From: Candidatus Buchananbacteria bacterium RIFCSPHIGHO2_02_FULL_39_17
Lineage (GTDB): Bacteria; Patescibacteriota; Patescibacteriia; Buchananbacterales; UBA6539
NCBI GenBank assembly: GCA_001817425.1
Contig: MHII01000012.1
Span: 77 to 64,076, forward strand
Reading direction: 5' to 3'
Length of the DNA stretch: 64,000 bases
Shown: piece after piece, positions 20,342 to 40,936 of the stretch
How positions within the stretch are numbered: position 1 is the first letter of the stretch
How the letters are laid out: the number at the start of each line of letters is the position of its first letter
Notes under the pieces: model-generated
The model's database searches: none
What the model saw: the letters and a program-made list of their open reading frames with translations, nothing else
What the model was told of the DNA's origin: nothing
Translations under genes and position numbers: made by a program

Positions 20342-20428
20342 GTCAAAAATCAAAAATCAAAAGGCAAAAGTCAAAAGTTTAAGTCAAAATTCAAAAGCTG
20401 TAGTTTAATTACTTTTAACTTTTGAATT
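20342..20428. repeat. Partial copy of the caaaag-rich ~100-bp intergenic repeat that also flanks rmlA
   Basis: caaaaggcaaaagtcaaaag...acttttaacttttgaatt matches the start and end of the 22957-23059 arm. It ends ~6 bp before the HIT-gene ATG. Confidence 0.55.
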
Positions 20429-20431
20429 AAT

Positions 20432-20866: not shown

Positions 20867-21866
20867 GTTATTGGTAACAGGTGGAGCTGGCTTTATTGGC
20901 TCAAATTTTATCCATTATTGGTTGAAAACTCATCTTCAAGATGAGATTATTAATTTAGATAAATTGACTTACGCCGGCAATTTAGAGAACTTAAAAGACA
21001 TTGAAAAAAATCCAAATTATAAATTGGTGGTCGGCGATATTACTAACGTTGATATTGTTGGTAGTTTAGTTAAGGATTGCGATGCGGTCGTTCACTTGGC
21101 GGCGGAATCTCATGTTGACCGTTCAATTATGGATGCCGCTGAATTTATCCGGACCAATGTTTTAGGCACGCAAATTCTGCTTGACGCGGTTAAACAATAT
21201 GATAAACGTTTTCACCATGTTTCCACTGATGAAGTTTTCGGTGCCCTAACCCTAGAATCAAAAAATAAATTTAATGAAAATACGCCCTATCATCCAACTA
21301 GCCCTTACGCCGCTTCCAAAGCCGCTTCTGACCATTTAGTCAGGGCATTTATTTACACTCACAAAATTGCGGCGACTATCAGCAATTGTTCCAATAATTT
21401 TGGCCCATATCAATTCCCGGAAAAATTTATTCCCTTGGCCGTCACTAATTTGTTGGTCGGCAAAAAAATACCGGTGTATGGTGATGGCTTGTATGTCCGC
21501 GATTGGCTTTTTGTGGAAGATCATTGTCGCGGCATTGATTTAATTTTAGAGAAAGGGAGAATCGGTGAAACTTATTGCCTTGGCGGTATGACTAGTGAAA
21601 TCAATAATTTAGAGGTGATAAAAAAGATTTTAAAAATTTTAGGCGAAAGTGAAGATAAAATTGAGTTGGTCAAAGATCGGCCTGGGCACGACCGACGTTA
21701 TGCGATTAATTGGTCAAAGGCCAAACAAGAATTGGGCTACCAACCCCAGTTTGACTTTGACCGTTATTTAGAAAAAACTGTCCAATGGTATCAACAAAAC
21801 AAAAATTGGTGGCAAAATATTAAGTCCGGCAGTTATAAGGATTACTATGAAAAACAATATCAATAA
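20859..21866 (+). CDS. rmlB: dTDP-glucose 4,6-dehydratase
   Basis: MAKLLVTGGAGFIGSNFIHYWL, the catalytic YAASKAASDHLVRAF (Y..K) motif, and ~335 aa length. Confidence 0.9.
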   Translation: MAKLLVTGGAGFIGSNFIHYWLKTHLQDEIINLDKLTYAGNLENLKDIEKNPNYKLVVGDITNVDIVGSLVKDCDAVVHLAAESHVDRSIMDAAEFIRTNVLGTQILLDAVKQYDKRFHHVSTDEVFGALTLESKNKFNENTPYHPTSPYAASKAASDHLVRAFIYTHKIAATISNCSNNFGPYQFPEKFIPLAVTNLLVGKKIPVYGDGLYVRDWLFVEDHCRGIDLILEKGRIGETYCLGGMTSEINNLEVIKKILKILGESEDKIELVKDRPGHDRRYAINWSKAKQELGYQPQFDFDRYLEKTVQWYQQNKNWWQNIKSGSYKDYYEKQYQ

Positions 21867-22098
21867 AGATGATCAGTGATTTTAAAATAAAGTTGAGTTA
21901 CAAAGTAATCAAATAAATTAGAATTTTTAATTTTGATTTCCCGCAATTACGGGATCCTCGATTTTTCATCCCGCCACGGCGGGGGAAAAATCGGGACAAT
22001 TTTGAATATTAAAATATTGAATTATTCAATCAAAATTCTGATTTAAAAATTCAAAATTATTTAAACTTTAATCAGATAAAAAATTATTATCCTTATTT

Positions 22099-22953
22099 AT
22101 GGCCAATCAACGGAAAATCCTTATCCTTGGCGCAAACGGCATGCTGGGCCACGATCTGGCTGAAATTTTTTTTGATCAAAAACCAATTCTTTGGGATATG
22201 CCAAATCTTGATATTACTGATGAATTTGCGGTCAAACAAAAATTAGCTGATTTAATGCCTTCTTTAGTGATTAATGCCGCTGCCTATACTGACGTTGATG
22301 GTGCTCAAAATCAGCCAGATTTGGCGTTTAAGGTCAATGCCGACGCCATTGGCTACTTGGCAGTTGCCTGTCAGCAATTAGGGGCGATTTTGGTGCATTA
22401 CAGCACTGAATACGTTTTTTCCGGTAACAAGGATACTGGTTATCAAGAAGACGACAAAACTGATCCGTTAAATATTTATGGCCAGTCTAAAGCCAAAGGT
22501 GAAGAGATTTTAAAACAAAATTGTGAAATGTTTTATTTAATTCGTTCAAGCTGGCTTTACGGCCGTTCACCCCAAGTCGGCAAGCCGCGCGGCTTGAATT
22601 TCGTCCAAACTATGCTAAAATTGGCAGGTGAGGGTAAAGAGATTAATGTTGTTTCCGACCAGTTTGGCAAGCCGACTTATACTTTAGACTTAGCTAAAAA
22701 AACCCGGGAAATTATTGAAACTCAAAAGCCCTGCGGCATTTATCATGCGGTTAACGAAGGTGTTTGCAGCTGGTATGAATTTGCCAAAAAAATTTTTGAA
22801 ATAAAAAATATTTCCGCAAATTTAAATTCAATTAATTCAGATCAATATCCTTTGCCTACGCCACGGCCAAAATACAGCATTTTAGTTAACACCAAATTAG
22901 AGCCGTTGCGGAAGTGGGACGAGGCGTTGCGAGATTACCTACGGCAAAGTTAA
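22099..22953 (+). CDS. rmlD: dTDP-4-dehydrorhamnose reductase
   Basis: KILILGANGMLGHDL, YGQSKAKGEE, ~284 aa. Confidence 0.85.
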   Translation: MANQRKILILGANGMLGHDLAEIFFDQKPILWDMPNLDITDEFAVKQKLADLMPSLVINAAAYTDVDGAQNQPDLAFKVNADAIGYLAVACQQLGAILVHYSTEYVFSGNKDTGYQEDDKTDPLNIYGQSKAKGEEILKQNCEMFYLIRSSWLYGRSPQVGKPRGLNFVQTMLKLAGEGKEINVVSDQFGKPTYTLDLAKKTREIIETQKPCGIYHAVNEGVCSWYEFAKKIFEIKNISANLNSINSDQYPLPTPRPKYSILVNTKLEPLRKWDEALRDYLRQS

Positions 22954-22956
22954 AAG

Positions 22957-23059
22957 TCAAAAGGCAAAAGTCAAAATTGCAATTCAAAATTCAAAAGTAA
23001 AAAGTAATAATTTTGATTTTTAACTTGAACTTTTAATTTTTAACTTTTAACTTTTGAAT
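22957..23059. repeat. Left arm of the 103-bp inverted repeat enclosing rmlA
   Basis: Its reverse complement matches 23824-23926 at 102 of 103 positions. Built from caaaag/acttttaa units. Confidence 0.85.
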
Positions 23060-23064
23060 TTTTT

Positions 23065-23781
23065 ATGAAAGGCATAATTTTAGCCGGCGGGACCGGTTCG
23101 CGCTTGGATCCGCTGACTCGAGTCACCAATAAACATTTACTACCGATCTACGACCGGCCAATGATTTATTATCCGATTCAGACTTTAGTCAAAGCTGGCA
23201 TCACTGACATTATGATTGTTTCCGGCAAAGGCCATGCCGGGCAGTTTTTGGAATTACTTCAATCTGGTAAAGAATTGGGCGCGAAGTTTTCCTATGGCGT
23301 GCAAGAAGAAGCCGGCGGCATTGCCCAAGCCTTGGCCGTCTGCCAAGATTTTGCTGACAATGATAAAATTGTGGTAATGTTAGGCGATAATATTTTGCAA
23401 AATGATATTTCTAATGCCGTCAAAGATTTTGAAAAACAAGATAAGGGCTCAAAGATATTTTTAAAAGAAGTGGAAAATCCCAAATCTTTTGGCGTGGCGC
23501 AAATTGCCGGCGACAAAATCATTGAAATTGAAGAAAAACCAAAAAACCCCAAAACCAATTTAGCGGTTATTGGGGTTTATCTGTATGATAGTCAGGTTTG
23601 GCAAGTGATTAAAACTTTGAAACCTTCAGGGCGAGGCGAATTGGAAATCACTGATGTTAATAATTTTTACGTTAAAAAAGGGGAAATGACTTTTGAAATT
23701 TTGCGCGGCTGGTGGGGAGACGGAGGTGAGTCATTTGATAGTTTATTGGCGGCCGGGAATTTGGTTGCCAAGAAAAAATAA
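23065..23781 (+). CDS. rmlA: Glucose-1-phosphate thymidylyltransferase-like sugar-phosphate nucleotidyltransferase (short form)
   Basis: MKGIILAGGTGSRLDPLTRVTNKHLLPIYDRPMIYYPI is the nucleotidyltransferase signature. Adjacent to rmlB and rmlD. Confidence 0.7.
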   Translation: MKGIILAGGTGSRLDPLTRVTNKHLLPIYDRPMIYYPIQTLVKAGITDIMIVSGKGHAGQFLELLQSGKELGAKFSYGVQEEAGGIAQALAVCQDFADNDKIVVMLGDNILQNDISNAVKDFEKQDKGSKIFLKEVENPKSFGVAQIAGDKIIEIEEKPKNPKTNLAVIGVYLYDSQVWQVIKTLKPSGRGELEITDVNNFYVKKGEMTFEILRGWWGDGGESFDSLLAAGNLVAKKK

Positions 23782-23823
23782 TTTTTCAAGCACCAAATCC
23801 AAAATCACAAGCTCCAAATAATA

Positions 23824-23926
23824 ATTCAAAAGTTAAAAGTTAAAAATTAAAAGTTCAAGTTAAAAGTCAAAATTATTACTTTTTACTTTTGAATTTTGAA
23901 TTGCAATTTTGACTTTTGCCTTTTGA
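23824..23926. repeat. Right arm of the 103-bp inverted repeat enclosing rmlA
   Basis: Reverse complement of 22957-23059 with one mismatch. Confidence 0.85.
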
Positions 23927-23983
23927 ATTTTAACTTTGATGCTTATTTATAATTTGGAATTTATTTGAGATTTAATATTTCAA

Positions 23984-25357
23984 TTATTGAATTTCTAGTT
24001 GATAAATTCCCGCCGTTTGGCCAATTGCGCCTTGAAAATAAAGATTTTTTCCGTTTTGGTCCAGAAAAATCGAATTAATCTTTAAAGCTTCAACCAAGAT
24101 AATGTCATTTTTAATTTCGCCGCTACTATAATTTTCCAATGCTCGAATTTGATTGCCTGTTTGATAGATTAAATATGAACCGAGCGGATGCCAAATCACA
24201 TCATCAATCGTTTCGCTTAAGCGGGTGATTAATTCCTTTTCTTCACTTTTTAGATTAAGAACTTTTATTTCAAAATCAGTAAAGTACAACAACTGATTAA
24301 AATTTTTTGACCAAGATATTTTTTTTGCTTGATCGGTTAAGATGATGCTTTGGTTGATGTCGGCCGAGTCAAAAATTTGGCTTTTTATGACTAATAAGTC
24401 ATTATTTTTTTTATCTGATAAAATTAAAAAATTTTCTAAAGAATCTTTGAATTCATAAATAGAGAATTTTGGCAATTTTATTATTTTTAAATCATTTTCG
24501 CTACCATCCTCAATCGGTTTATTTTTTAAATAAATTTCGCCTTTTTCTTGGCTAATTAAGTAAAACTGATCATTAATAATTTCAAAATCAAAAACGTTAG
24601 CCTCCGCTAGATTGACGGTGTTGGCGATTAGATCGATTTGATAAAGCGCATTTTTCCTTAAACCATATAAGAAGAAATCATTATTTTTATTCCATTTAAT
24701 CTTTTCAAAATTTAACTTGGTTAGGGTCGTTAAATCCTTGATTTTTAAGGTTTCGGCATCTACGATCAAATATCGGTTAAAACTGCCGATGGTCATTTTT
24801 AAAAGCATTTTTGTTTTGTTCGGTGACCAACTGATAAATTCCAGTTGCTGATAATTTTTTTTATCAAATTTTTTAATATCAAGATTAACTTGATTTTTTA
24901 AGTTATAAATTTTTAGTTCTTCAATGCCGCGATTGATTACGGAGTAAATTATTTTTTCCTGATCCGGCACTAAAGAGAGTATATTAATTTCGCCGTTAAT
25001 GATATTAATGGGTAGGTTTTTTTTAAATAAAATAACATCTCTTTTGAAAGTGGTTAAATTGCTTTTAATTTCTAGTTTCTGTTGCCAGAAAGAATATCCG
25101 TTTTTTTTAATTTCTACGAGATATTGATCAGGTAAGAGGCGGCTAAAACGCGCTGGCGTTTGGCCTTGATATTTTTCGTCAAAATAAATTTCTGCTCCTT
25201 TTGGCATTGAATCAAGGTAGAGGATGCCGGTTTTTTCGAATTTATTTTTTTTGAAATTATAACGGTAGCCGGTGCTGTAAATAATTAAGGCTGGGGCAAT
25301 CGCCAAAAAAATGGCGAAAAATGAAAGGTATAAAATTCGGCGATATTTGAGATTCAT
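23984..25357 (-). CDS. Membrane-anchored PEGA-domain protein with a beta-propeller-like C-terminal region
   Basis: N-terminal TM helix, a PEGA-like segment (YLDSMPKGAEIYFDEKYQGQTPARF...YLVEIKKNGY), then a long beta-rich repeat region. Confidence 0.4.
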   Translation of the reverse strand: MNLKYRRILYLSFFAIFLAIAPALIIYSTGYRYNFKKNKFEKTGILYLDSMPKGAEIYFDEKYQGQTPARFSRLLPDQYLVEIKKNGYSFWQQKLEIKSNLTTFKRDVILFKKNLPINIINGEINILSLVPDQEKIIYSVINRGIEELKIYNLKNQVNLDIKKFDKKNYQQLEFISWSPNKTKMLLKMTIGSFNRYLIVDAETLKIKDLTTLTKLNFEKIKWNKNNDFFLYGLRKNALYQIDLIANTVNLAEANVFDFEIINDQFYLISQEKGEIYLKNKPIEDGSENDLKIIKLPKFSIYEFKDSLENFLILSDKKNNDLLVIKSQIFDSADINQSIILTDQAKKISWSKNFNQLLYFTDFEIKVLNLKSEEKELITRLSETIDDVIWHPLGSYLIYQTGNQIRALENYSSGEIKNDIILVEALKINSIFLDQNGKNLYFQGAIGQTAGIYQLEIQ

Positions 25358-26793: not shown

Positions 26794-28092
26794 ATGCCAA
26801 ATAATCAAAATCAGAAACCAAAATCAAAATTTACTAAATTTTTTTTAGTCAGTTTATCGGCGACAATATTATTAATTTTAGTTTTTGTTTTTGGTTATGC
26901 TTTGGGCGATTTTTCTCTAGCAAAAAAAGTTGGTTTATTTGAAAAAGGCGGCCAGCTTTTAAATGCGGAAAAACTGCCTGATTATTTAAAAAATGATGTT
27001 AATTTTGATCAGTTCTGGCAGGTTTGGCGGTATCTTAAAGATAATTATGTTAAAACTAATATCACGGACACTCAACTTTTCTATGGCGCTTTAAGCGGTT
27101 TGGTCGGCGCTTTAAATGATCCTTACTCGGTATTTTTTGATCCAGAAATTTCAAGGAAGTTTAATCAGGAGCTGGCTGGCAGTTTTGAAGGCGTTGGCGC
27201 GGAAATCGGTTTGCGTGAAGGCCGATTGACCGTGATTGCCCCTCTGGCTGGAACGCCAGCGGATAAGGCCGGATTAAAAGCTGGAGATTTGATTGTGGAA
27301 ATTGACGGCAAAGATACTTCAGGCATTGCCCTTGACTATGCGGTGAGCCTAATTCGGGGCGAGAAAGGAACGAAAGTGGCTTTGACCGTTTACCGCAACG
27401 GCGATGATGAACCGCGGAAGCTTGAAATTATCCGCGATAAAATTGAAATTGACAGCGTCAGATTTTCGCGCAAAGATAAGACCGGCAAAAGCGAAGGGGA
27501 TGAAGGATTCGTCCTTAAGGAAGGCAACATCGCTTATGTTGAATTGCTCTACTTTAATGAAAACACTTTAGCTGATTGGAACCAGACGGTTCAAAATATT
27601 TTAGCCATTAATCCAAGCGGCATTATTTTAGATTTGCGCAATAATCCGGGCGGATTTTTGGGAACAGCCATTGAAGTCGCCGGTGAATGGGTAAATGGTA
27701 AAACCGTGGTGGCCGAGCAACTAAGAAGCGGCGAAAAAATTGAGCACAAAGCCAATCGCCAAGCGCGTTTCGTCGCTATTCCCACCGTAGTTTTAGTCAA
27801 TAAAGGCAGCGCTTCAGGGTCAGAAATCGTGGCCGGCGCTTTGCAGGATTATAAGGCGGCGACTATCGTCGGTGAAACAACTTTTGGCAAAGGTTCGGTC
27901 CAGGATTTAAAAGAGTTTTCTGACGGTTCGTCAGTCAAATTGACCATTGCCGAATGGCTGACGCCGAACGGCAAAAACATCAATGAGCAGGGGATTAAGC
28001 CGGATATTGAGGTGAAAATGACTAAAGAGGATTACGATGCGGACAAAGATCCGCAGTTAGATAAAGCCCTTGAAATTTTGCGGGCAAAATAA
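26794..28092 (+). CDS. ctpA: Carboxyl-terminal processing protease (peptidase S41)
   Basis: PDZ segment GLKAGDLIVEIDG and the S41 catalytic region GSASGSEIVAGALQDY. Start chosen at ATG 26794; the ORF track's 26761 overlaps murA. Confidence 0.8.
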   Translation: MPNNQNQKPKSKFTKFFLVSLSATILLILVFVFGYALGDFSLAKKVGLFEKGGQLLNAEKLPDYLKNDVNFDQFWQVWRYLKDNYVKTNITDTQLFYGALSGLVGALNDPYSVFFDPEISRKFNQELAGSFEGVGAEIGLREGRLTVIAPLAGTPADKAGLKAGDLIVEIDGKDTSGIALDYAVSLIRGEKGTKVALTVYRNGDDEPRKLEIIRDKIEIDSVRFSRKDKTGKSEGDEGFVLKEGNIAYVELLYFNENTLADWNQTVQNILAINPSGIILDLRNNPGGFLGTAIEVAGEWVNGKTVVAEQLRSGEKIEHKANRQARFVAIPTVVLVNKGSASGSEIVAGALQDYKAATIVGETTFGKGSVQDLKEFSDGSSVKLTIAEWLTPNGKNINEQGIKPDIEVKMTKEDYDADKDPQLDKALEILRAK

Positions 28093-28179
28093 AATTTAAT
28101 ATGAGTAAAAAAGAAAAATGGGAAATAATTGCTCACGAATATTATCGTGTAGTTTGTTTCCCATTTTTAGGTTAGTGAT

Positions 28180-29640
28180 ATGAAAATTAATATCGATCCA
28201 AAAGCTGAATTATTTGAGTGGGGGCCAATTGACGGTAAGTTAATTTATACGGATTATTTTAACGTTGCTTTTACTGAATATGCTAATAAAGTTTTTATTA
28301 GTTGGCCTGATATTTTATGGATTGGGCTTAAAGAAAAGGTAACGTGTATTATTGACTATGCTGAATTGAGAAAAAGCGGTGAAAGGAATTTTAAGGCTTT
28401 TATCTTAAACGATAAAAAATTCAAAAATAATTTTATTTGGTGGCAGAAGGCAGTAAAATCACTTTTAACTTTTCAAAAAAATATCAGTCAGAAATCATTA
28501 AAAAAAATGAGTCAAGAACAATTGGCCGACTGTTATGATCAATGGGCAAAATTATTTCTTGATTTTTGGACAATTGGCGAACTGCCAGAGCTAGCAGGTT
28601 GGGGTGGTGAGGTGATTTTAAAAAAGGCTTTAGAAAAATCAGTGCCAGAAAAATATCTCAGCACGGCTTTCGAAAAATTATTTGCCTTAGAAGAGCTTTC
28701 TTTTTACCAAAAATCGGAATTAGATTTATTAAAAATTGGCAAATTTTTGAATAATAAGTCAGTATTAGAAAACCAACTTGAGAATTATCAAAAAAATCAT
28801 TTTTGGATTTTAAATAGTTATTATCATACTAAAATTTTAAACAAAAATTATTTTAAAAATGAACTGCTTAATTATTCACCAAAGCTACGTAAAGAAAAAA
28901 TAGAGGAATTATCGGATTTGCCAAAAAAGGCAATGAAAGAAAAAAATAGAATTGCCAAAATATTTCAGCTAGATAAAAAAACTCTTAAAATAGCTAAACG
29001 CCTTAGTTTTTGTATGTGGTGGCAAGATTCGCGCAAGTTTTATATCTTTTTAGCTAATTATTATATTGATTTATTTTTAAAAGAATTTTCCAGTCGATTT
29101 AAAATTAATTTTGATGATTTACATTATTATAATTGTTACGAAATTTTAGATTTAGCTAAAAAAGGTAAAAAAATACCGACAACAGAAATCAAAAAACGTT
29201 ATAATAATTTGGTTGTTTATTACTCTAAAAATTATAACTCCTTAAAATATGTTTTTGGAAAAGAGGCGGCGGCAGTTACTTCAAAGTTTTTAAACGTTAA
29301 GGTTGATAAAAACATCGCCGAATTAAAAGGAGTGGTTGTGAGTCGTGGTCGCACTATTAAGGCTATAGTCAAGATCTTAACCAGCCCGTCTCAAGCTGAT
29401 AAGCTTAAGGAAGGCGAGATTTTAGTGGCGCCGATGACTTCCCCTGACTATATTTTGGCCATTAAAAAGGCCAGTGCCATTATTACCGATGTTGGTGGCA
29501 TGACTTCTCATGCCGCAGTGGTATCACGTGAATTAGGTATACCCTGTATTGCTGGAACAAAGATTGCCACAAAAGTTCTTAAAGATGGAGATTTGGTCGA
29601 GGTAAATACCAATAATGGAATAATCAAAAAATTAAAATAA
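28180..29640 (+). CDS. PEP-utilizing-enzyme mobile (phosphohistidine swivel) domain protein with a large unknown N-terminal domain
   Basis: The C-terminal ~90 aa carry GGMTSHAAVVSRELGIPCIAGT, the PEP-utilizers phospho-His motif. The N-terminal ~380 aa is helical with no recognised motif. Confidence 0.55.
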   Translation: MKINIDPKAELFEWGPIDGKLIYTDYFNVAFTEYANKVFISWPDILWIGLKEKVTCIIDYAELRKSGERNFKAFILNDKKFKNNFIWWQKAVKSLLTFQKNISQKSLKKMSQEQLADCYDQWAKLFLDFWTIGELPELAGWGGEVILKKALEKSVPEKYLSTAFEKLFALEELSFYQKSELDLLKIGKFLNNKSVLENQLENYQKNHFWILNSYYHTKILNKNYFKNELLNYSPKLRKEKIEELSDLPKKAMKEKNRIAKIFQLDKKTLKIAKRLSFCMWWQDSRKFYIFLANYYIDLFLKEFSSRFKINFDDLHYYNCYEILDLAKKGKKIPTTEIKKRYNNLVVYYSKNYNSLKYVFGKEAAAVTSKFLNVKVDKNIAELKGVVVSRGRTIKAIVKILTSPSQADKLKEGEILVAPMTSPDYILAIKKASAIITDVGGMTSHAAVVSRELGIPCIAGTKIATKVLKDGDLVEVNTNNGIIKKLK

Positions 29641-29648
29641 TTAATGAT

Positions 29649-30491
29649 ATGAAAAAGTTAACTGATTTAATATTAAAAAAAGCTAAGAAACAAAGAAAAA
29701 GAATTGGTATTGGAATTATAAAAATTGATAATGAAATTTTAACCAGCTTAAACAAAGCAAAGAAAATAGTTGATGTGGTTATTTATGGCAGAAAAATTCC
29801 TGGTCTTAATTGTATAGAATTTTTCGACTACGGTAAGGCAGCTAGACAGATGGTCAAAGATTTCAAGGAAGAAAAAATTGATCAATTCGTTCGAGGTCAA
29901 TTTGATGATTTTTATGTTACTGATGAATTTAAAAGACAATTTAATATTAATCCAAGGGAGAAAAGAATTGACGTGAGTTTTATGGAGGATGCAAGTGGGT
30001 GGCAATTTTTTATAACTGGTATATCAAATCCTGACCTCAACGATTTAAAAGATAAAATCAGAGTAATTACTGGTTTAACCGGTTGGCTTAAGAAGCAATT
30101 TGATCTGGAATTAAAAGTAGCAGCGATGGCAACTTGCCGGCCCGGCAGTTATGGTAAAAATAAAGAAATGGATAAAACTTATGATGAAGCTGAGGCAGTA
30201 GCAAAATATTTGAAAAGAAGAAATATTAATACTAGAAATGTCAATATAGAAATAGAAGAAGCTAAAAAATGGGGAGCTAACCTTGTTTTACCGGCGAGGG
30301 GAATGATTGGTAATCAGATTTTTAGAACCATTTTGTATCTAGGCGGCGGCAAAAATTATTTTTGTCCAACGATTTTTTCGGGCAAAGGAGTTTATGCCGA
30401 CAATTCACGGAATGAAAAAGATTGGTTTTATCATTTAATTTTTGCCCAGTATTTGGCGAATTATAAAAATTATGAAAGACAATCGGATTAA
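29649..30491 (+). CDS. Phosphate acetyl/butyryltransferase (PTA_PTB) family protein
   Basis: The C-terminus ANLVLPARGMIGNQIFRTILYLGGG...DNSRNEKD follows the PTA pattern (D/N-L-V...GN...G..D.SR). The N-terminus RIGIGIIKIDNEIL resembles PTA. Confidence 0.45.
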   Translation: MKKLTDLILKKAKKQRKRIGIGIIKIDNEILTSLNKAKKIVDVVIYGRKIPGLNCIEFFDYGKAARQMVKDFKEEKIDQFVRGQFDDFYVTDEFKRQFNINPREKRIDVSFMEDASGWQFFITGISNPDLNDLKDKIRVITGLTGWLKKQFDLELKVAAMATCRPGSYGKNKEMDKTYDEAEAVAKYLKRRNINTRNVNIEIEEAKKWGANLVLPARGMIGNQIFRTILYLGGGKNYFCPTIFSGKGVYADNSRNEKDWFYHLIFAQYLANYKNYERQSD

Positions 30492-30502
30492 ACTGATTAT
30501 TT

Positions 30503-31477
30503 TTGGCTCGCAATGACAAAATAAAAACTATGTCCAAATTCATCAAGCCATTTTCTCAACTTTCCAAAACCGACGTGAAAATTGCTGGCGGCAAGGGTGC
30601 GTCTTTAGGTGAGATGACGCATGCCAAAATTCCAGTGCCGCCAGGCTTTGTTGTATTAGCCCAAGCTTTTGACCGGTTTTTAGCGGAAACTGATTTAGTC
30701 GTGGAAGTGGAAGCGAATTTAAACAAAATAAATTATAAAGACACAAATTCCATTAACAAAGCATCAAATGTGATTCGCGATTTGATTCATGACTCAAAAA
30801 TGCCGCTTGATTTGCAAAAAGAAATTTTAGCGGAATTTAAAAAATTAAAAGCGAAGCTTGTCGCCGTTCGATCATCAGCCACAGCCGAAGATTCCTCTCA
30901 AGCGAGCTGGGCCGGAGAATTAGAAACATTTTTAAACACGACTGAGAAAAATTTATTAGGCAAAGTCAAACAATGCTGGTCATCGCTTTTTACACCTCGC
31001 GCAATTTTTTATCGCTTTGAAAAAGGATTGCGTAATTCTAAAGTATCTGTGGCGGCGGTGGTCCAGCAAATGGTTGATTCAGAAATTTCCGGCATTGCTT
31101 TTACCGTTCATCCCGTGACTAAAACTAAAAGTCAAATGATCATTGAAGCTGGCTGGGGTTTGGGTGAAGCCATAGTCTCTGGCCAGATTACGCCAGACAG
31201 TTATGTCATTGATAAAACAGATTTTTCCATTTTGGATATTAATGTATCGCAGCAAACAAAAATGTTAGTCAAAAAAGGCTCGGCTGGCGGCAATGTCTGG
31301 AAGCCAGTGCCAAAAAATCAGCAAGAAGCTCAAGTGTTATCTGGCAAACAAATAATCGAGCTAGCCAAAATTTGTGCTGGCATTGAAAAACATTACAAAA
31401 AACCGCAAGACATTGAGTGGGCATTTGCTAAAGGTAAATTTTATATTACCCAAAGCAGGCCGATTACGACGCTTTAA
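30503..31477 (+). CDS. PEP synthase / pyruvate phosphate dikinase N-terminal PEP/pyruvate-binding (ATP-grasp) domain protein
   Basis: IAGGKGASLGEM...PVPPGFVV and VAVRSSATAEDSSQASWAGELETFLN match the PPDK_N signature. It is a stand-alone domain here. Confidence 0.7.
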   Translation: MARNDKIKTMSKFIKPFSQLSKTDVKIAGGKGASLGEMTHAKIPVPPGFVVLAQAFDRFLAETDLVVEVEANLNKINYKDTNSINKASNVIRDLIHDSKMPLDLQKEILAEFKKLKAKLVAVRSSATAEDSSQASWAGELETFLNTTEKNLLGKVKQCWSSLFTPRAIFYRFEKGLRNSKVSVAAVVQQMVDSEISGIAFTVHPVTKTKSQMIIEAGWGLGEAIVSGQITPDSYVIDKTDFSILDINVSQQTKMLVKKGSAGGNVWKPVPKNQQEAQVLSGKQIIELAKICAGIEKHYKKPQDIEWAFAKGKFYITQSRPITTL

Positions 31478-31497
31478 TGAAAAATAACTTCCTCTTT

Positions 31498-31545
31498 CTC
31501 CCCCTTAAATTAAGGGGGGGGGTGAGAGGGGGTTAAATTTCAAAA
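31498..31545. repeat. Hairpin element related to the DUF559-element termini
   Basis: ctcccccttaaattaaggggggg followed by gagagggggtta, cf. 11936-11959 and 61634-61656. Confidence 0.5.
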
Positions 31546-31805
31546 TGATAATTATGCAAAAAATTTGGCGGAAAAATTTTGAAATTCAGCGGAGTCATCC
31601 GCTTTTAGCTTATGATGCGCTGAAAGTGTGTTATGAATATGGCACGATTCTGCTTGGCCGCAAATTTTTTACTGAAATATTTTGGGTTAACGAAGGAGTT
31701 AATAATACCGGTACTTATTTTATTAAGAGCGAATTAAGAAAAGCTGCGGAATTGACTTTAAAAAAAATTATCCATCATTCGGGGTTGGTGAAAAAAATAA
31801 ATTAA
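31545..31805 (+). CDS. Hypothetical small protein
   Basis: ORF only, 86 aa. Confidence 0.2.
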   Translation: MIIMQKIWRKNFEIQRSHPLLAYDALKVCYEYGTILLGRKFFTEIFWVNEGVNNTGTYFIKSELRKAAELTLKKIIHHSGLVKKIN

Positions 31806-31855
31806 GCAAAATAAGTTTTAAGCAAGATAAGCGAGATAAGCAAATCAAGCTAATT

Positions 31856-32128
31856 ATGACCAAGAGATTGAATTTAAAAATACACGGATTAGTTCAGGGC
31901 GTTGGTTTTCGCTATTTAAGTCGGAAAGAAGCGGAAAAACGCGGTTTTACCGGTTCTGTCCATAATATAAGGGATGGCGGCGTGGAGATTGTCGCTGAGG
32001 GCGAAGAGACTGACTTGAAAAAATTTATTGACTGGTGCTACAATGGAGTTGGATCCGTTCAGGTTTCCAAAATAGATATTAACTGGTCCGAGGCGACTGG
32101 TGAATTCAGGGATTTTTTGATAAGATAA
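31856..32128 (+). CDS. acyP: Acylphosphatase
   Basis: IHGLVQGVGFRY and GSVHNIRDGGVEIVAEGE are the two acylphosphatase signatures. Confidence 0.8.
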   Translation: MTKRLNLKIHGLVQGVGFRYLSRKEAEKRGFTGSVHNIRDGGVEIVAEGEETDLKKFIDWCYNGVGSVQVSKIDINWSEATGEFRDFLIR

Positions 32129-34662: not shown

Positions 34663-34768
34663 ATTTAAAAAATTAAAAATTAAAATCTAAAATTTGAAAT
34701 ATGTTTTTAATATTATACCAAATCAACAAAATTGTCAAGAAGTTTTGATTAATATATACTGGAAAAGT

Positions 34769-35659
34769 ATGAAATTTAGATATTTTTTATTCATTTTAAC
34801 ATCATTTTTGTTATTAGCTGGTTGTCAATATATTAGTCGAGATAGGGCTAAAATAGAGCCAATAAGCCAAGATAGAGTAACACAGCAAGATAAGCGAGAT
34901 CAACCCACCTCTGCTGAAGCTTCGGTGGACAAGCAAGATAAGGCGCCAACTTCAGTGTCGACTTCTTTAACTCCGGTTTTAAATCAGCCTAATCAAAGAA
35001 ATTCTCAAGTAAAGACAGAAGAAGAAAAAGATCCAGTGCCGTCGGTAGAAATACCGGAATTATTAGTAAGTTTTTTAGACTATCCAGTGCCGTTTGCGCC
35101 GCAAGCGCCATATGGTGTTTGGGATGCTTTGCACCAAGAGGCCTGTGAAGAAGCGTCCATGATTATGGCAAAAGCTTATTTTAAAAACGAGAGTTTAAAT
35201 TCTCATTTAATGGAGCAAGAGATTTTAAATTTAATAAAGTGGGAGAAAGAAAATGGTTATCAAATTGATGTTTCTGCGGCAGAGGTAATAAAAATTTTGG
35301 GCGAATATTTTAGCCTTAAGGCAGAATTAGTCAGTGAGGTGACGGTGGAAAACATAAAAAGTCAGCTTCGGGCGGGAAAATTAATTATCGTGCCGGCGGC
35401 TGGCCGCAAATTAGGTAATCCTTATTTTCGTCAGCCCGGGCCGATTTACCATATGCTTTTGATTCGGGGTTTTGATGAAGCCAAAGGTGAATTTATTGTC
35501 AATGATCCTGGAACCAAACGGGGCGAAGCTTACCGCTATTCTTATCAAAAATTAATTTTGGCGGTTGCTGACTGGGATCACGAATTGGGCGGTGATGGTA
35601 TGTCGGAATTGGAGATGGCACAAGGCAGAAAAGTGATGATCGTGGTGAGTAAAAATTAG
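34769..35659 (+). CDS. Putative lipoprotein with a C39-like (papain-fold) peptidase domain
   Basis: Signal and lipobox-like MKFRYFLFILTSFLLLAGCQ. The C-terminal region with a conserved Cys/His context resembles peptidase_C39-like domains. Start taken at ATG 34769. Confidence 0.35.
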   Translation: MKFRYFLFILTSFLLLAGCQYISRDRAKIEPISQDRVTQQDKRDQPTSAEASVDKQDKAPTSVSTSLTPVLNQPNQRNSQVKTEEEKDPVPSVEIPELLVSFLDYPVPFAPQAPYGVWDALHQEACEEASMIMAKAYFKNESLNSHLMEQEILNLIKWEKENGYQIDVSAAEVIKILGEYFSLKAELVSEVTVENIKSQLRAGKLIIVPAAGRKLGNPYFRQPGPIYHMLLIRGFDEAKGEFIVNDPGTKRGEAYRYSYQKLILAVADWDHELGGDGMSELEMAQGRKVMIVVSKN

Positions 35660-35865
35660 ATTTTTACATTTTTTTTAATTTTAAAAGTGAATAAAGTTTC
35701 GGTGGGCAGGGCATCAGACCCTGCCCACCGACCAAAGGAGTATCCTCCTTTGGAATCCTCTTATGATTAGTGTTCGCTCGCTACCGCTCGCTCACAGATT
35801 TTATTATTGACTCCGCCTCATCCCTGCGGCAGAGACCGCAGGGTATTCGGCGGATTTGCATAATA

Positions 35866-35903
35866 AAATAAGCGAAGTCTTTATCCTTCGCTTATTTTAT
35901 TAT
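35866..35903. terminator. Bidirectional terminator hairpin in the convergent gap
   Basis: aaataagcgaag-tctttatc-cttcgcttattt stem-loop, with T-runs on both sides. Confidence 0.5.
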
Positions 35904-35915
35904 AATAATTTTTAA

Positions 35916-36242
35916 CTAGTTTGTTGGTGGAGCCAATTCAACTTTAAAGGTAATGGCAAAAGGGTTTTTAATTTCTGACCAACTGATATTTTTTTTGCTG
36001 GTTTTTGCTTCAATAGCGGCTAGGGCCTCATTAACTTTTTTTAAATCAATTGTATCGGGAGCGACTTCTTGTTTTAATAATATAATTTCTTTTGATTGGG
36101 CAATGGTTTGATAAAGATTATTATAGAGAAAATAGCCAAGCAACGTCAAAACGCCGATAATCATGATTAAAATTATCAAATAAATATACTTTAGAGAAAA
36201 AATAATTGGCGCAATTTTTATTTTTGGTAATTTTAATTTCAT
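35916..36242 (-). CDS. Hypothetical single-TM protein, last gene of the pilus assembly operon (PilP-like position)
   Basis: 108 aa with one TM helix. Lies downstream of pilO in the operon. Confidence 0.3.
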   Translation of the reverse strand: MKLKLPKIKIAPIIFSLKYIYLIILIMIIGVLTLLGYFLYNNLYQTIAQSKEIILLKQEVAPDTIDLKKVNEALAAIEAKTSKKNISWSEIKNPFAITFKVELAPPTN

Positions 36243-36245
36243 AAA

Positions 36246-36809
36246 TTAATTTTTGGTGGTAGTTTTTGAGAGAGAATAAATTTCTCCCGCCAGATTAGTA
36301 TTGATTATTTCCGGATTATTTCTATTAGCTGATTGGTTGCTAAAAGTGATGGCGGAAACATTAAAATAATATTTAAGGTTTTGTAAATCGCTTAAGTATT
36401 TTAAAGTATTAAGAAAACTACCTGTGGCATTAAGGGTCAAGGGGAGTGGTGAATAAAACTTTTTTTCCAAAGTTTTGTCTTGAGTGGGCTGAAGCTTAAT
36501 TATTTGGCTTAAGCCGTTTGCCGCGGCCACCCGCTCCAAAGCCGTAATAAATTCTAATTCTTCTCCTTCTTTAATGAAAGCGGCAGCCAATTTTTCTTGC
36601 TGGGGTTTAATTTTTTCGAAATCTTGAATAGTTTTTTTGAGGAGTTGCCCTCGAAGATATTTTTTTTCTAAATCAACTCTTTCCTGATAGACGGCATCAC
36701 TAATTTTTTTAATATCCCGGATTGTTGGTAAAATGATAAAATAAACAACAATAAAGGTAACACTTAAAACAGCGGCAACGGAAATAATTATTTTTCTTTT
36801 AACGCTCAT
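36246..36809 (-). CDS. pilO: Type IV pilus assembly protein PilO-like
   Basis: N-terminal TM helix followed by a coiled-coil. Position after pilM and pilN. Confidence 0.5.
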   Translation of the reverse strand: MSVKRKIIISVAAVLSVTFIVVYFIILPTIRDIKKISDAVYQERVDLEKKYLRGQLLKKTIQDFEKIKPQQEKLAAAFIKEGEELEFITALERVAAANGLSQIIKLQPTQDKTLEKKFYSPLPLTLNATGSFLNTLKYLSDLQNLKYYFNVSAITFSNQSANRNNPEIINTNLAGEIYSLSKTTTKN

Positions 36810-36811
36810 AA

Positions 36812-37336
36812 CTACGGTTTAATATTAATTGTTGCCTTAAAAGTAAAGTCGACATTGTCTTTTTTGAGCAAATTCTCTAAGGGGATGGCGACTTCCGCGA
36901 AAAGATTTGATTCTTCAAAATTTTCTTTTAACTGAATGAGATTTTGGCGAGTTTTGGCTAAACCCGTAATTAAAATTTTATTGTCTTTAATACTTAAATT
37001 GTATAAGCCAACATCAGCGGGGATGAGCTGGTTTAATTGTATAAAAAATTCTACCCAATCATGATAATTTTTCTGGATACTAATAACGGCACCGAGGTCT
37101 TGATTAAATTCTTTAATATCTTTATTAAAAATATTGGCATAACGGGTGGTCATTGTTGTTTGCGCAACGATTTGATTAAAATGGTTTTGCAGAATTAATT
37201 TAGTCATCAATAAAGCAATCGCGATAATAATTGTGATTAAAAGAATTAAGATGATTAAATCTTTAATCATCAGGTAAAGTTGGGTGAGGTGAAATTCTTG
37301 TTTTTTTACCGGTGGCAATAAATTAAGAGTGATCAT
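36812..37336 (-). CDS. pilN: Type IV pilus assembly protein PilN-like
   Basis: Short cytoplasmic N-terminus, one TM helix and a periplasmic domain. Overlaps the pilM stop. Confidence 0.5.
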   Translation of the reverse strand: MITLNLLPPVKKQEFHLTQLYLMIKDLIILILLITIIIAIALLMTKLILQNHFNQIVAQTTMTTRYANIFNKDIKEFNQDLGAVISIQKNYHDWVEFFIQLNQLIPADVGLYNLSIKDNKILITGLAKTRQNLIQLKENFEESNLFAEVAIPLENLLKKDNVDFTFKATINIKP

Positions 37337-38397
37337 ATAAATTTTTCTTTTTGTAAGCTTCTAAGGGCTAAACCGATGGCTGAAGTGTAAGATAAAATTT
37401 TATTTTTAGACAAGGAAATTTTTTTGTCTAAAGATAAATTATTTAGGGGATTTCCGATTTTAACCGGCAGGTTTAACATTTCTTTTAAAACTTCGTCAAT
37501 TTTAAGAAAATTAGCGCCACCGCCACAAATAATGATTTCACTAATTTCATTGCCGCTGACAAAATTAGTTTTATAGAAAATAATCGCTTTTTTTATTTGT
37601 TCGGCTAAATTATTTATTGATCCCATCAAAACTTTAAGCATCGCCCCTTCGCATTTTTCTCGATCAAGGCCGCAGACCAGTTTTGCTTTTTCGGCTTTTT
37701 TTTCATCCAGTTTGAGGGTTTTAGCGATTGCCTCAGTGATTTTATTACCTGAAATCGGCAGGCTGACCGTGAACTGAATCGTATTTTTGTCAAAAATAAT
37801 TAAGCCGGTTCGCATGGCTCCAAAATCGATAATAATCTTTGCCCCTTTTTCTTTTTCGGAAAGTAAACTTCTGACAATGGCGGCCGCTTCGATTTCTAAA
37901 ACATACGGCGTTAAGCCGCAATTCTGTAGAACTGAATAATAAGAATCAACTAGATTTTTCGGGGTGGCGCCAACTAAAACAGAAGACCAGTCACTGCCTT
38001 GTTCCAAGAGTTGCCAATCAAAATAGATTTCCTCTGGAGCAAGAGGAATATGATTAATAATTTCTTTTTCAATCAATTTTGGGGTTTCCTCCAAATTTTT
38101 TTTATTAATTTGGTTTGGTAGAGTTAGAACTTTAATAAAAGTTTTTGTTTCCGGCAAAACGGAAATAACATTTTTTGTTTTTATTTTTTGGCCAGCCGCA
38201 GTTTTAATCAGTTGTTGAATTAGTTTTATTAATTTATCCGGCTGTTGAATTTCACCATTAATAACAATATCATTTGGTACCGCTGATTCATTATAAGAAG
38301 TCAAGATTATTTTTTTGCCGATTTTTTTGCATTTTGCCAGTCTGATTGTTCGATCACTAAGATCTAAACCAAACGCCTGTTGCATTTGTCCAAACAT
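37333..38397 (-). CDS. pilM: Type IV pilus assembly protein PilM (actin-like ATPase fold)
   Basis: GLDLSDRTIRLAKCKK, IIIDFGAMRTGLIIFD and ICGGGANFLKIDEVL are PilM/FtsA-like motifs. Confidence 0.8.
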   Translation of the reverse strand: MFGQMQQAFGLDLSDRTIRLAKCKKIGKKIILTSYNESAVPNDIVINGEIQQPDKLIKLIQQLIKTAAGQKIKTKNVISVLPETKTFIKVLTLPNQINKKNLEETPKLIEKEIINHIPLAPEEIYFDWQLLEQGSDWSSVLVGATPKNLVDSYYSVLQNCGLTPYVLEIEAAAIVRSLLSEKEKGAKIIIDFGAMRTGLIIFDKNTIQFTVSLPISGNKITEAIAKTLKLDEKKAEKAKLVCGLDREKCEGAMLKVLMGSINNLAEQIKKAIIFYKTNFVSGNEISEIIICGGGANFLKIDEVLKEMLNLPVKIGNPLNNLSLDKKISLSKNKILSYTSAIGLALRSLQKEKFI

Positions 38398-38485
38398 AGG
38401 TTAAATTTTATTTCAATTATCTAAAATTATACCAATTAATTTATATCGCGGCAAATTTTAACGCCTGTATCCTAAATTCCTAACT

Positions 38486-38516
38486 CTCCGCCAGAGGCGG
38501 ACTCGCCTCTGGCGAG
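38486..38516. repeat. GC-rich double-hairpin element, family 2, inverted copy
   Basis: ctccgccagaggcggactcgcctctggcgag. Its reverse complement aligns with 5527-5560, sharing an identical second hairpin and a covarying first stem. Confidence 0.7.
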
Positions 38517-39731: not shown

Positions 39732-39732
39732 T

Positions 39733-40922: not shown

Positions 40923-40936
40923 GTAAACCCTTGTTT

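What the first reader, a model, noticed from the sequence alone, without database searches (positions are those of the whole stretch)
28180..32128. Split, circularly permuted PEP-synthase/rifampin-phosphotransferase-like enzyme with an intervening PTA-family gene and a downstream acylphosphatase
In PEP synthase and rifampin phosphotransferase the ATP-grasp (PPDK_N) domain precedes the phospho-histidine swivel domain in one polypeptide. Here the swivel domain (GGMTSHAAVVSRELGIPCIAGT) is the C-terminus of the first gene, 28180-29640, and carries a large unrecognised N-terminal domain. The ATP-grasp domain is a separate gene, 30503-31477, located downstream.

A PTA/PTB-family acyltransferase (29649-30491) is inserted between them, and acylphosphatase follows at 31856. 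All are co-directional with short gaps. This looks like a coherent but undescribed phospho- or acyl-phosphate transfer module rather than a decayed ppsA: every piece keeps intact catalytic motifs, and the C-terminal PEP-binding TIM-barrel domain is absent.
Basis: partly seen in the sequence, partly recalled or inferred. Interest (0 to 1): 0.5.

Follow-up and report, generated by a model that had tools for sequence, protein, structure and literature searches.

The report
Split dikinase with MtxX-like partner
Three tightly packed genes in a Candidatus Buchananbacteria genome encode a two-piece ATP-driven phosphate-transfer enzyme of a known kind plus a phosphotransacetylase-fold protein related to the unexplained "methanogenesis marker 4"; this trio is the smallest form of a large gene cluster shared by ultra-small bacteria and archaea that I could not find described.

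Summary

- g1 (28180-29640) is a rifampin-phosphotransferase (RPH)-type substrate-binding domain plus a C-terminal phospho-histidine swivel domain.
- g3 (30503-31477) is the matching ATP-grasp component.
- Together they have the architecture and gene order of the known two-component dikinases PpsAB, CreHI and HpeHI. The split and the "permuted" order are therefore not new, and this is not a decayed ppsA.

The middle gene is what is new. g2 (29649-30491) is a PTA/PTB-fold protein whose closest relative is methanogen MtxX/Mmp4, a protein of unknown function.
- About 100 loci from Patescibacteria and DPANN archaea show g2-type genes embedded in clusters of swivel-domain genes. These clusters hold up to 11 paralogs and never more than one ATP-grasp gene.
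- The clusters often include an M20, M29 or FGase amidohydrolase and phosphatases.
- Where g2 is absent, a canonical Pta-like gene sits next to the g1 ortholog instead.
- The acylphosphatase follows the ATP-grasp gene only in the window's own lineage.

Best reading: a His-swivel dikinase whose phosphorylated product, possibly an acyl phosphate, is handled by the PTA-fold partner. The substrate is unknown.

The parts
28180..29640 (+). g1: substrate-binding (RPH RIF-binding-domain-like, aa 1-~375) plus C-terminal phospho-histidine swivel domain (aa ~376-486). The catalytic His444 codon is at 29509-29511. The invariant motif WWQDxRK lies at aa 280-286.
29649..30491 (+). g2: MtxX/Mmp4-like protein with a PTA/PTB fold. 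The conserved cleft residues are R164, K170, F225, S253 and R254 (motif YADNSRNE).
   Evidence: TIGR03270, E 4.5e-27, below cut-off. 9nzy, E 2.4e-12. AF2 pLDDT 92.9. Foldseek 9nzy 4.6e-15, then 3u9e, 7vg9 and 1yco. Family alignment A1.
30503..31477 (+). g3: stand-alone ATP-grasp (PPDK_N) component of the dikinase. The TTG start is at 30503; the ATG at 30530 is used by two annotations.
   Evidence: PF01326, E 1.3e-99. RPH ATP-grasp domain 5hv6, E 1.7e-63. Called as 315 or 324 aa in public assemblies.
31478..31542 (+). Strong stem-loop immediately after the g3 stop codon. It probably marks the 3' end of the g1-g2-g3 transcript.
   Evidence: MFE -36.7 kcal/mol, z-score -5.9, 0 of 200 shuffles as stable. 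Sequence. It has no clear T-run, so its role as a terminator is inferred.
31545..31805 (+). Orphan 86-aa ORF in the spacer between g3 and the acylphosphatase. Coding status is doubtful and it is probably not part of the module.
   Evidence: No Pfam or NCBIfam hit. No homolog in any related locus. In related loci L036 and L055 the acylphosphatase follows the ATP-grasp gene directly.
31856..32128 (+). Acylphosphatase. It is a lineage-specific downstream neighbour, and whether it belongs to the module is uncertain.
   Evidence: PF00708, E 3.1e-22. It follows the ATP-grasp gene only in the window, L036 (45-nt gap) and L055 (4-nt overlap), that is 3 of 30 ATP-grasp genes with visible downstream genes.

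Best explanation
g1, g2 and g3 form one operon-like module.

**The dikinase.** g3 (ATP-grasp) and g1 (substrate domain plus swivel) are the two components of an RPH/PpsAB/HpeHI-type small-molecule dikinase.
1. g3 binds ATP and transfers the beta,gamma-diphosphoryl group to His444 on the g1 swivel domain, releasing AMP.
2. The gamma-phosphate is lost as Pi.
3. The swivel domain carries His~P to the helical N-terminal domain of g1.
4. There, near the invariant R285/K286, the phosphate passes to a small-molecule oxygen nucleophile.

**The partner.** g2 is an MtxX-like protein with a PTA/PTB fold. It has a conserved basic cleft and the Ser-Arg pair that binds the phosphate or acyl-phosphate in phosphotransacylases. 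It is functionally coupled to this reaction. Most likely it takes the phosphorylated product, possibly an acyl phosphate, and transfers the organic group to an acceptor such as a thiol, releasing Pi.

**The wider cluster.** The window holds the minimal form of a variable Patescibacteria/DPANN cluster. In that cluster one ATP-grasp protein appears to serve many swivel-domain paralogs with different substrate domains.

**Shown here:** domain identities, folds, conserved catalytic motifs and conserved gene linkage.
**Inferred:** the catalytic cycle (by homology), the coupling of g2 to the product, and the acyl-phosphate chemistry.
**Unknown:** the substrate.

**Sub-confidences:** two-component His-swivel dikinase about 0.85; functional coupling of g2 about 0.8; acyl-phosphate chemistry about 0.3.
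For: **Domains and folds**
- The catalytic motif GGMTSH has invariant T442 and H444, and R285 is invariant. R285 lies 159 residues before the His. That is the same spacing as RPH-Lm R666 to H825, and R666 is essential for the second transfer (PMC4844700).
- Mechanism precedent: HpeH (RIF-binding-like domain plus swivel) and HpeI (ATP-grasp) form a two-component dikinase, and activity is abolished by mutating the His (PMC12167813). The PpsA and PpsB subunits behave likewise (PMC6114531).

**Linkage**
- 19 of 25 loci found through g2 alone have a swivel gene within two genes. Only L027 and L029 are true exceptions.
- The exact g1-g2-g3 order recurs in L005, where g2 is only 30% identical, and in L011.
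- g2 homologs and g1 orthologs occur in many Patescibacteria lineages and in DPANN archaea.
- MtxX-like and canonical PTA_PTB genes are mutually exclusive. In 6 to 7 loci a Pta-like gene (PF01515, E 1.6e-85) abuts or overlaps the g1 ortholog where g2 is missing.
- The MtxX cleft residues R128, R134, F188, S215 and R216 are conserved in g2.
- The acylphosphatase overlaps the ATP-grasp stop codon in L055.
- 8- and 11-nt gaps separate the three genes, and a hairpin follows g3.
Against: - No biochemical data exist for any member of these clusters.
- All characterised RPH-type dikinases phosphorylate hydroxyl, enol or amine groups. None is known to make an acyl phosphate.
- g2 is not detectably related to canonical PTA by sequence (hhalign probability 32%). 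The published MtxX structure lacks the catalytic Asp of PTA, and M. jannaschii, which has MtxX, shows no PTA activity (PMC12978539).
- PTA-fold domains can be purely regulatory, as in MaeB.
- Only 7 of 16 long g1-seeded loci show g2 within 10 kb. One archaeal lineage has the g1 ortholog inside a mevalonate-pathway operon, with no g2 or g3 nearby.
- The acylphosphatase linkage is confined to one lineage.
Confidence: 0.55

Rival explanations
1. g1/g3 is a scavenging or catabolic hydroxyl (phenol, alcohol or enol) kinase like PpsAB/HpeHI. g2 is only an accessory or regulatory subunit. It would be analogous to, but not homologous with, the stimulatory gamma subunit of phenylphosphate synthase, or a ligand-sensing PTA-fold domain as in MaeB.
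For: All characterised relatives phosphorylate OH groups (PMC12167813; PMC4844700). Phenylphosphate synthase has a third subunit of unknown function that stimulates activity. MaeB PTA domains, which are regulatory, are among the structural matches of g2. MtxX lacks the PTA catalytic Asp.
Against: g2 has about 20 invariant polar residues lining the PTA-type cleft. It is replaced by catalytic-type Pta-like genes in other lineages. It is frequently paired with amidohydrolases rather than directly with a swivel gene. No aromatic-catabolism genes lie nearby.
Confidence: 0.28
2. The swivel-domain genes are RPH-like inactivating kinases. On this view the cluster is an arsenal that detoxifies host- or community-derived antibiotics and other small molecules.
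For: The best structural match is rifampin phosphotransferase. Large arrays of divergent paralogs (up to 11 per locus) resemble detoxification or defence families. A CPR resistome survey scored rph-like hits (PMC8651080).
Against: NCBIfam RPH models score far below cut-off: 65 and 279 bits against 999. The g1 ortholog is conserved at 40-60% identity across Patescibacteria and DPANN archaea, which fits a core function. The window keeps only this one paralog. The conserved PTA-fold, amidohydrolase and phosphatase partners are not expected for drug inactivation.
Confidence: 0.07
3. The module acts in isoprenoid or polyprenyl-phosphate metabolism, for example phosphorylating a prenol or polyprenol, with g2/MtxX acting on a prenyl-phosphate-related compound.
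For: The g1 ortholog is translationally coupled between UbiD and AcnX in an archaeal mevalonate-pathway operon (L033, L069, L070). BacA lies next to g2 in L014 and next to g1 in L062. Methanogen mtxX lies next to uppS in Methanobacteria and Methanococci (PMC12978539). The window cluster follows the cell-envelope genes murA and ctp.
Against: The mevalonate context comes from one lineage in one set of samples. The BacA adjacency is seen in only two loci. Most clusters have no isoprenoid genes. g1 is a soluble protein. All mevalonate-pathway steps in L033 already have assigned enzymes.
Confidence: 0.07
4. It is a fragmented or decaying PEP synthase (ppsA), or a true PEP synthase split into subunits.
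For: g3 and the g1 swivel domain have PEP synthase as their best sequence matches.
Against: There is no PEP/pyruvate TIM-barrel domain anywhere in the locus. Scores are well below the PpsA cut-offs: 349 and 111 bits against 598. The g1 N-domain has the RPH fold. The ORFs are intact, conserved over roughly 100 loci, and identical across three assemblies.
Confidence: 0.02

Closest known systems
Two-component small-molecule dikinases: phenylphosphate synthase PpsAB(C), CreHI, HpeHI
   Same: Two polypeptides. One carries an RPH-type substrate-binding domain plus a C-terminal His swivel domain with the GGxT(S/C)H motif. The other is a stand-alone ATP-grasp (PPDK_N). The swivel-component gene comes first. 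There is no TIM-barrel domain. Phenylphosphate synthase also has a third, unexplained subunit.
   Different: The N-domain has no sequence-detectable similarity to any solved or curated relative. A PTA-fold MtxX-like gene sits between the two components. The genomic context is not aromatic catabolism. The hosts are ultra-small Patescibacteria and DPANN. In relatives, a single ATP-grasp gene accompanies up to 11 swivel paralogs.
Rifampin phosphotransferase (RPH, for example RPH-Lm 5FBS/5HV1)
   Same: The same three domain folds (ATP-grasp, helical substrate domain, swivel His). The conserved Arg lies at the same distance from the catalytic His.
   Different: RPH is one chain in the order ATP-grasp, RIF-binding, swivel. 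Here there are two chains. NCBIfam RPH models score far below cut-off. There is no evidence for rifamycin as the substrate.
MtxX / methanogenesis marker protein 4 (MTH_231, PDB 9NZY)
   Same: It is the best sequence and structure match of g2. The PTA/PTB fold and the D(T/N)SR motif are conserved, as are the basic cleft residues R128 and R134 and the hydrophobic F188.
   Different: g2 is about 21% identical in the structural alignment and scores below the TIGR03270 cut-off. It is found in non-methanogens. Its neighbours are dikinase components and amidohydrolases, not mtxAH, mmp2, mmp12 or uppS.
Phosphate acetyl/butyryltransferases (PTA/PTB, PF01515) and PlsX
   Same: The fold and the Ser-Arg pair at the phosphate site. 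Canonical Pta-like genes occupy the equivalent position next to g1 orthologs in other lineages.
   Different: There is no Pfam PTA_PTB hit. g2 is 30-100 residues shorter. Equivalence of the PTA catalytic Asp is not established, and CoA binding is unknown.
PEP synthase / pyruvate phosphate dikinase
   Same: ATP-grasp and swivel domains, and the presumed His~P swivelling mechanism.
   Different: It lacks the PEP/pyruvate-binding TIM barrel. The substrate domain has a different fold, and the enzyme is split into two genes.

Membership tests
Two-component RPH-like dikinase (PpsAB/CreHI/HpeHI) | Stand-alone ATP-grasp (PPDK_N) polypeptide | tested here: met
   g3 matches PF01326 at E 1.3e-99 over profile positions 2-311 of 328. 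5hv6, E 1.7e-63.
Two-component RPH-like dikinase (PpsAB/CreHI/HpeHI) | Second polypeptide with an RIF-binding-domain-like fold followed by a C-terminal swivel domain carrying GGxT(S/C)H | tested here: met
Two-component RPH-like dikinase (PpsAB/CreHI/HpeHI) | ATP converted to AMP + Pi, with a phospho-His intermediate and phosphorylation of a small molecule | not testable with these tools
   Needs enzyme assays. Inferred by homology only.
Two-component RPH-like dikinase (PpsAB/CreHI/HpeHI) | Phenolic substrate or aromatic-catabolism gene context | tested here: not met
   The neighbours are murA, an S41 protease, rml genes, L9 and pyrG. Related clusters carry amidohydrolases, phosphatases and PTA-fold genes.
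PEP synthase (PpsA, TIGR01418/NF005057) | C-terminal PEP/pyruvate-binding TIM-barrel domain, and a score above the curated cut-off | tested here: not met
   No PEP-utilizers_C hit. g3 scores 349 bits and g1 111 bits against a cut-off of 598.
Rifampin phosphotransferase (NF041857) | Single three-domain chain scoring above cut-off | tested here: not met
   279 bits (g3) and 65 bits (g1) against a cut-off of 999, and the enzyme is split into two genes.
PTA/PTB (PF01515) | Match to the Pfam PTA_PTB profile | tested here: not met
   No Pfam hit for g2 at E <= 0.1. hhalign against a canonical PTA gives probability 32%.
PTA/PTB (PF01515) | PTA/PTB two-subdomain fold with the Ser-Arg pair in the cleft | tested here: met
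   Foldseek to 3u9e 7e-15, 7vg9 1.7e-13 and 1yco 2.5e-13. S253 and R254 are conserved.
PTA/PTB (PF01515) | Catalytic Asp, and acyl-phosphate:CoA transferase activity | not testable with these tools
   E256 and D258 are conserved near the Ser-Arg pair, but their structural equivalence to the PTA Asp was not established. Activity needs an assay.
MtxX / Mmp4 (TIGR03270) | Score above the curated cut-off (equivalog) | tested here: not met
   94.8 bits against a cut-off of 190.
MtxX / Mmp4 (TIGR03270) | MtxX fold with the conserved DTSR motif and basic cleft | tested here: met
   9nzy is the top structural hit, E 4.6e-15, TM 0.70/0.81. DNSR and R164, K170 and F225 align with MtxX S215/R216, R128, R134 and F188.
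Acylphosphatase (PF00708) | Pfam match above the gathering score, with the VQGVxFR motif | tested here: met
   79.1 bits against 22.5. The sequence IHGLVQGVGFRY is present. It scores below the NCBIfam equivalog cut-offs.

The most novel reading that the evidence does not exclude
The trio is the minimal core of a phospho-histidine relay found across Patescibacteria and DPANN that is still undescribed. One ATP-grasp 'charger' serves many swivel-domain modules of different specificity. Their products are acyl phosphates, or similarly activated phosphates, that an MtxX-type or Pta-type transferase passes to an acceptor.

If so, three things would follow.
1. This would be the first functional assignment for the MtxX/Mmp4 family: an activated-phosphate group transferase.
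2. It would add a new reaction class, carboxylate phosphorylation, to the RPH-like dikinases.
3. The 'PEP synthase' reported as almost the only metabolic enzyme kept by the most reduced DPANN genomes would really be this system.
Probability: 0.2. Interest if true: 0.8.

Novelty: new variant of a known kind. Interest (0 to 1): 0.6.

Why it matters
MtxX/Mmp4 has had no assigned function since the 1990s, and its 2026 crystal structure still left it open. A conserved partnership with a dikinase in non-methanogens gives a concrete biochemical lead.

Patescibacteria and DPANN have tiny genomes, yet they devote up to a dozen adjacent genes to this system. That suggests it is central to how they salvage or activate metabolites.

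A recent preprint reports 'PEP synthase' in nearly all of the most reduced DPANN genomes, which lack glycolysis. I did not test whether those calls correspond to these genes. If they do, metabolic reconstructions of these organisms would need revising.

Tried and rejected
- **Paralogy of the 86-aa ORF.** I tested whether it is a truncated paralog of g1. BLASTP found nothing, and there is no homolog in any locus.
- **Sequence link of the N-domain.** A profile of the g1 N-domain against PDB sequences gave no meaningful hit. Only fold comparison links it to RPH.
- **Sequence link of g2 to PTA.** hhalign of the g2 family against a canonical PTA gave only 32% probability over 87 columns, and the Ser-Arg motif was not aligned.
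- **Acylphosphatase as a conserved member.** Rejected as a general feature: 3 of 30 loci, one lineage.
- **Mevalonate and BacA contexts.** Real, but confined to one lineage and two loci, so they are kept only as a minor rival.
- **Fusions of MtxX-like proteins.** I looked for fusions to dikinase parts. I found only a rubrerythrin fusion (P0199), which is uninformative.
- **Literature.** Searches for PEP-utilizers or RPH together with Patescibacteria found only a resistome survey.
- **Not possible.** The afdb50 fold library was unavailable. Multimer prediction of g1 with g3 was not possible with the tools.

Full report
**1. The observation**

- g1 (28180-29640, 486 aa) ends in a PEP-utilizers swivel domain: PF00391, E 1.5e-26, motif GGMTSHAAVVSRELGIPC.
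- g3 (30503-31477) is a full PPDK_N ATP-grasp domain, E 1.3e-99.
- 31856-32128 is an acylphosphatase, E 3.1e-22.
- Neither g1 nor g3 has a PEP-binding TIM-barrel domain. All PEP synthase, PPDK and RPH equivalog models score far below their cut-offs.
- The gaps are 8 nt and 11 nt.

The window is contig MHIB01000037.1 of a Candidatus Buchananbacteria MAG (GCA_001817295.1). A JGI assembly and an ENA assembly show the same gene order, so mis-assembly is excluded.

It is a 378-nt spacer with a very stable hairpin directly after the g3 stop (-36.7 kcal/mol, z -5.9). It also holds an 86-aa ORF with no homolog anywhere.

**2. The two dikinase parts**

The "large unrecognised N-terminal domain" of g1 cannot be recognised by sequence. 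A profile of this domain finds nothing in the PDB.

A high-confidence AlphaFold model (pLDDT 94.7) resolves it.
- It matches rifampin phosphotransferase over almost its whole length: Foldseek E 1e-13, about 570 columns, TMq 0.57.
- Every other hit covers only the roughly 110-residue swivel domain.

So g1 is an RPH-type substrate-binding domain plus a swivel His domain, and g3 is the RPH/PEPS-type ATP-grasp domain (5hv6, E 1.7e-63).

This is the architecture of the two-component dikinases.
- In phenylphosphate synthase, the alpha subunit carries the His and catalyses phenol/phenylphosphate exchange. The beta subunit transfers a diphosphoryl group from ATP. A gamma subunit of unknown function stimulates activity (PMC6114531).
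- HpeHI and CreHI follow the same plan. [quoted passage not shown]

The split and the gene order are therefore known, and "circular permutation" is not an apt description.

In a 39-sequence alignment T442 and H444 are invariant. So is R285 in a WWQDxRK motif. R285 lies 159 residues before the His. That is the same spacing as R666 to H825 in RPH-Lm, where R666 is essential for the second phosphotransfer (PMC4844700). This equivalence rests on spacing only.

**3. The middle gene**

g2 has no Pfam hit. It matches NCBIfam TIGR03270, Mmp4/MtxX, at E 4.5e-27 but below the cut-off. It matches the 2026 crystal structure of M. thermautotrophicus MtxX (9nzy) at E 2.4e-12.

Its model (pLDDT 92.9) is closest to 9nzy (E 4.6e-15, TM 0.70/0.81). 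Next come phosphotransbutyrylases, phosphotransacetylases and the MaeB PTA domain.

The MtxX paper reports several relevant points (PMC12978539).
- MtxX has a PTA fold.
- It has a conserved DTSR motif, in which S215 and R216 correspond to the PTA Ser and Arg.
- Cleft arginines R128 and R134 are present.
- The PTA catalytic Asp is absent.
- No function has been assigned.

In the alignment these residues correspond to g2 S253/R254 (DNSR), the invariant R164, K170 and F225.

The whole MtxX superfamily is small. Only 377 cluster representatives are found among 1.84 billion. The MtxX paper does not mention bacterial or DPANN homologs.

**4. Is the arrangement conserved?**

*Loci found through g2.* g2 homologs (25-59% identical) occur in many Patescibacteria lineages and in DPANN archaea. 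Of 25 loci retrieved through g2 alone, 19 have a swivel-domain gene within two genes. Four of the remaining six are cut by contig ends or interrupted by spurious small ORFs. Only L027 and L029 are real exceptions. The exact g1-g2-g3 order recurs in L005, where g2 is only 30% identical, and in L011.

*Loci found through the g1 N-domain.* A metagenome scan gave 67 more loci.
- g1 orthologs (40-61% identical) are present in Woesearchaeota, Nanoarchaeota and Ainarchaeum as well as in CPR bacteria.
- They usually sit in arrays of swivel-domain paralogs. In loci of at least 20 kb the median is 8 and the maximum 11.
- 15 of 16 such loci have at least two swivel genes, 9 have an ATP-grasp gene and 7 have a g2-type gene.
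- Loci with three or more swivel genes have zero or one ATP-grasp gene, never two.

The window is therefore the minimal version: one swivel gene, one g2 and one ATP-grasp gene. Its closest relatives (L036, L055, L035, L037, L031) keep the upstream murA-S41 synteny but carry 3 to 6 swivel genes.

**5. Clues to function**

1. g2-type genes are directly next to a metallo-amidohydrolase in 19 of 38 non-redundant loci. Three unrelated families take this role: M20 (TIGR01891 amidohydrolase, above cut-off), M29 and FGase.
2. Seven g1-seeded loci carry a canonical Pta-like gene, and none of them carries g2. The gene matches PF01515 at E 1.6e-85 and TIGR00651 at about 250-260 bits. In six of the seven it lies within two genes of the g1 ortholog, often overlapping it. 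The two kinds of PTA-fold gene never co-occur in a locus.
   - Most of these loci fall in the tree clade that contains the Woesearchaeota and other archaeal loci.
   - This looks like replacement of one PTA-fold enzyme by another. It argues that a PTA-type catalytic activity is coupled to the g1-type dikinase.
3. Phosphatases recur in the clusters: HAD, HD and His_Phos_1/SixA-like, the last once fused to FGase. LbH acetyltransferase-like genes also recur.
4. The acylphosphatase follows the ATP-grasp gene only in the window, L036 and L055. These are one lineage, and in L055 the two genes overlap by 4 nt. That is 3 of 30 cases.
5. Hints towards isoprenoid metabolism are confined to few loci.
   - A g1 ortholog sits between UbiD and AcnX in a mevalonate operon.
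   - BacA lies next to g2 in one locus and next to g1 in another.
   - mtxX lies next to uppS in some methanogens.

**6. Mechanism**

The most likely cycle, by homology with RPH, PpsAB and HpeHI, has four steps.
1. g3 binds ATP and pyrophosphorylates His444 of g1.
2. The gamma-phosphate leaves as Pi.
3. The swivel domain delivers His~P to the g1 N-domain.
4. A small molecule is phosphorylated there.

g2 is functionally coupled to this cycle. I favour the view that it processes the phosphorylated product by a PTA-like group transfer, and that the product may be an acyl phosphate. Three observations support this.
- The partner always has a PTA fold.
- Genuine Pta-like enzymes can replace it.
- An acylphosphatase is attached in the window's lineage.

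I give the acyl-phosphate part about 0.3. No RPH-type dikinase is known to phosphorylate a carboxylate, MtxX lacks the PTA catalytic Asp, and PTA-fold domains can be regulatory. The main rival is a hydroxyl kinase with g2 as an accessory or regulatory subunit.

**7. Novelty**

The split dikinase is a member of a known kind. The following features were not found in the searchable literature:
- the conserved MtxX-like or Pta-like partner;
- the "one ATP-grasp, many swivel modules" clusters;
- their distribution across Patescibacteria and DPANN.

A CPR resistome survey merely lists rph-like hits.

A 2026 preprint reports "PEP synthase (K01007)" in 54 of 54 Pacearchaeales genomes that lack glycolysis. 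These calls may correspond to the genes described here. I could not test this.

I classify the finding as a new variant of a known kind, with interest 0.6.

Noticed in passing
window 31478-31542: A very stable GC-rich hairpin (-36.7 kcal/mol, z -5.9) lies directly after the g3 stop codon, in an otherwise AT-rich genome. It has no clear T-run.
   Followed up: partly
window 31545-31805: An orphan 86-aa ORF in a spacer. In the closest related loci (L036, L055) the spacer is absent and the acylphosphatase abuts the ATP-grasp gene. This is possibly an insertion remnant.
   Followed up: partly
L030 1445-7036: A single 1,863-aa protein made of one ATP-grasp domain followed by four swivel modules, which amounts to a fused version of the whole cluster. 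An FGase gene and a g2-type gene lie downstream.
   Followed up: no
L003 3843-5921 (also L004, L009): A 693-aa ATP-grasp + swivel fusion without a large substrate domain, sitting among separate swivel-domain genes.
   Followed up: no
L033 6161-11525 (also L069, L070, L072): A g1 ortholog is translationally coupled between UbiX-UbiD and AcnX large/small subunit genes. A GHMP kinase and an AA_kinase lie nearby. This is an archaeal-type mevalonate pathway operon in a DPANN-like contig.
   Followed up: partly
L014 9983-11634; L062 (gene before 2524): An undecaprenyl-diphosphatase (BacA) gene overlaps the end of a g2-type gene in L014. In L062 it directly precedes a g1 ortholog.
   Followed up: no
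L023 7962-9932: A 656-aa fusion of a His_Phos_1 phosphatase-like domain with an FGase amidohydrolase, immediately upstream of a g2-type gene. Separate His_Phos_1-like genes, weakly similar to SixA, recur in many clusters. They could be phospho-histidine phosphatases.
   Followed up: partly
L008, L010, L012, L015, L017, L028 (downstream of the ATP-grasp gene): A conserved block of PrgI-like and VirB4/TraG-like type IV secretion genes directly follows the ATP-grasp gene in six Patescibacteria loci.
   Followed up: no
L037 19807-21107; L048; L053; L012; L016: g2-type genes occur twice in one cluster. In L037, L048 and L053 the two copies are adjacent, although the L037 pair (275 aa followed directly by 157 aa) could be one split gene. 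In L012 and L016 there is a second, divergent copy (about 1e-28 to g2).
   Followed up: no
window 28001-30000: This region has the lowest GC of the window (0.305, against roughly 0.33-0.42 elsewhere) together with a high GC skew. It coincides with g1.
   Followed up: no
window 17728-25357 and 34694-42613: The surrounding genes are envelope and housekeeping genes. Upstream lie dTDP-rhamnose genes (rmlC-like, rmlB-like, rmlD, rmlA-like), an AftA_N-like glycosyltransferase and a PEGA-domain protein. Downstream lie a C39-like peptidase and type IV pilus genes (PilM, T2SSF/PilC).
   Followed up: partly
P0199: A 449-aa protein in which a g2-type (MtxX-like) domain is fused to a C-terminal rubrerythrin domain.
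   Followed up: no
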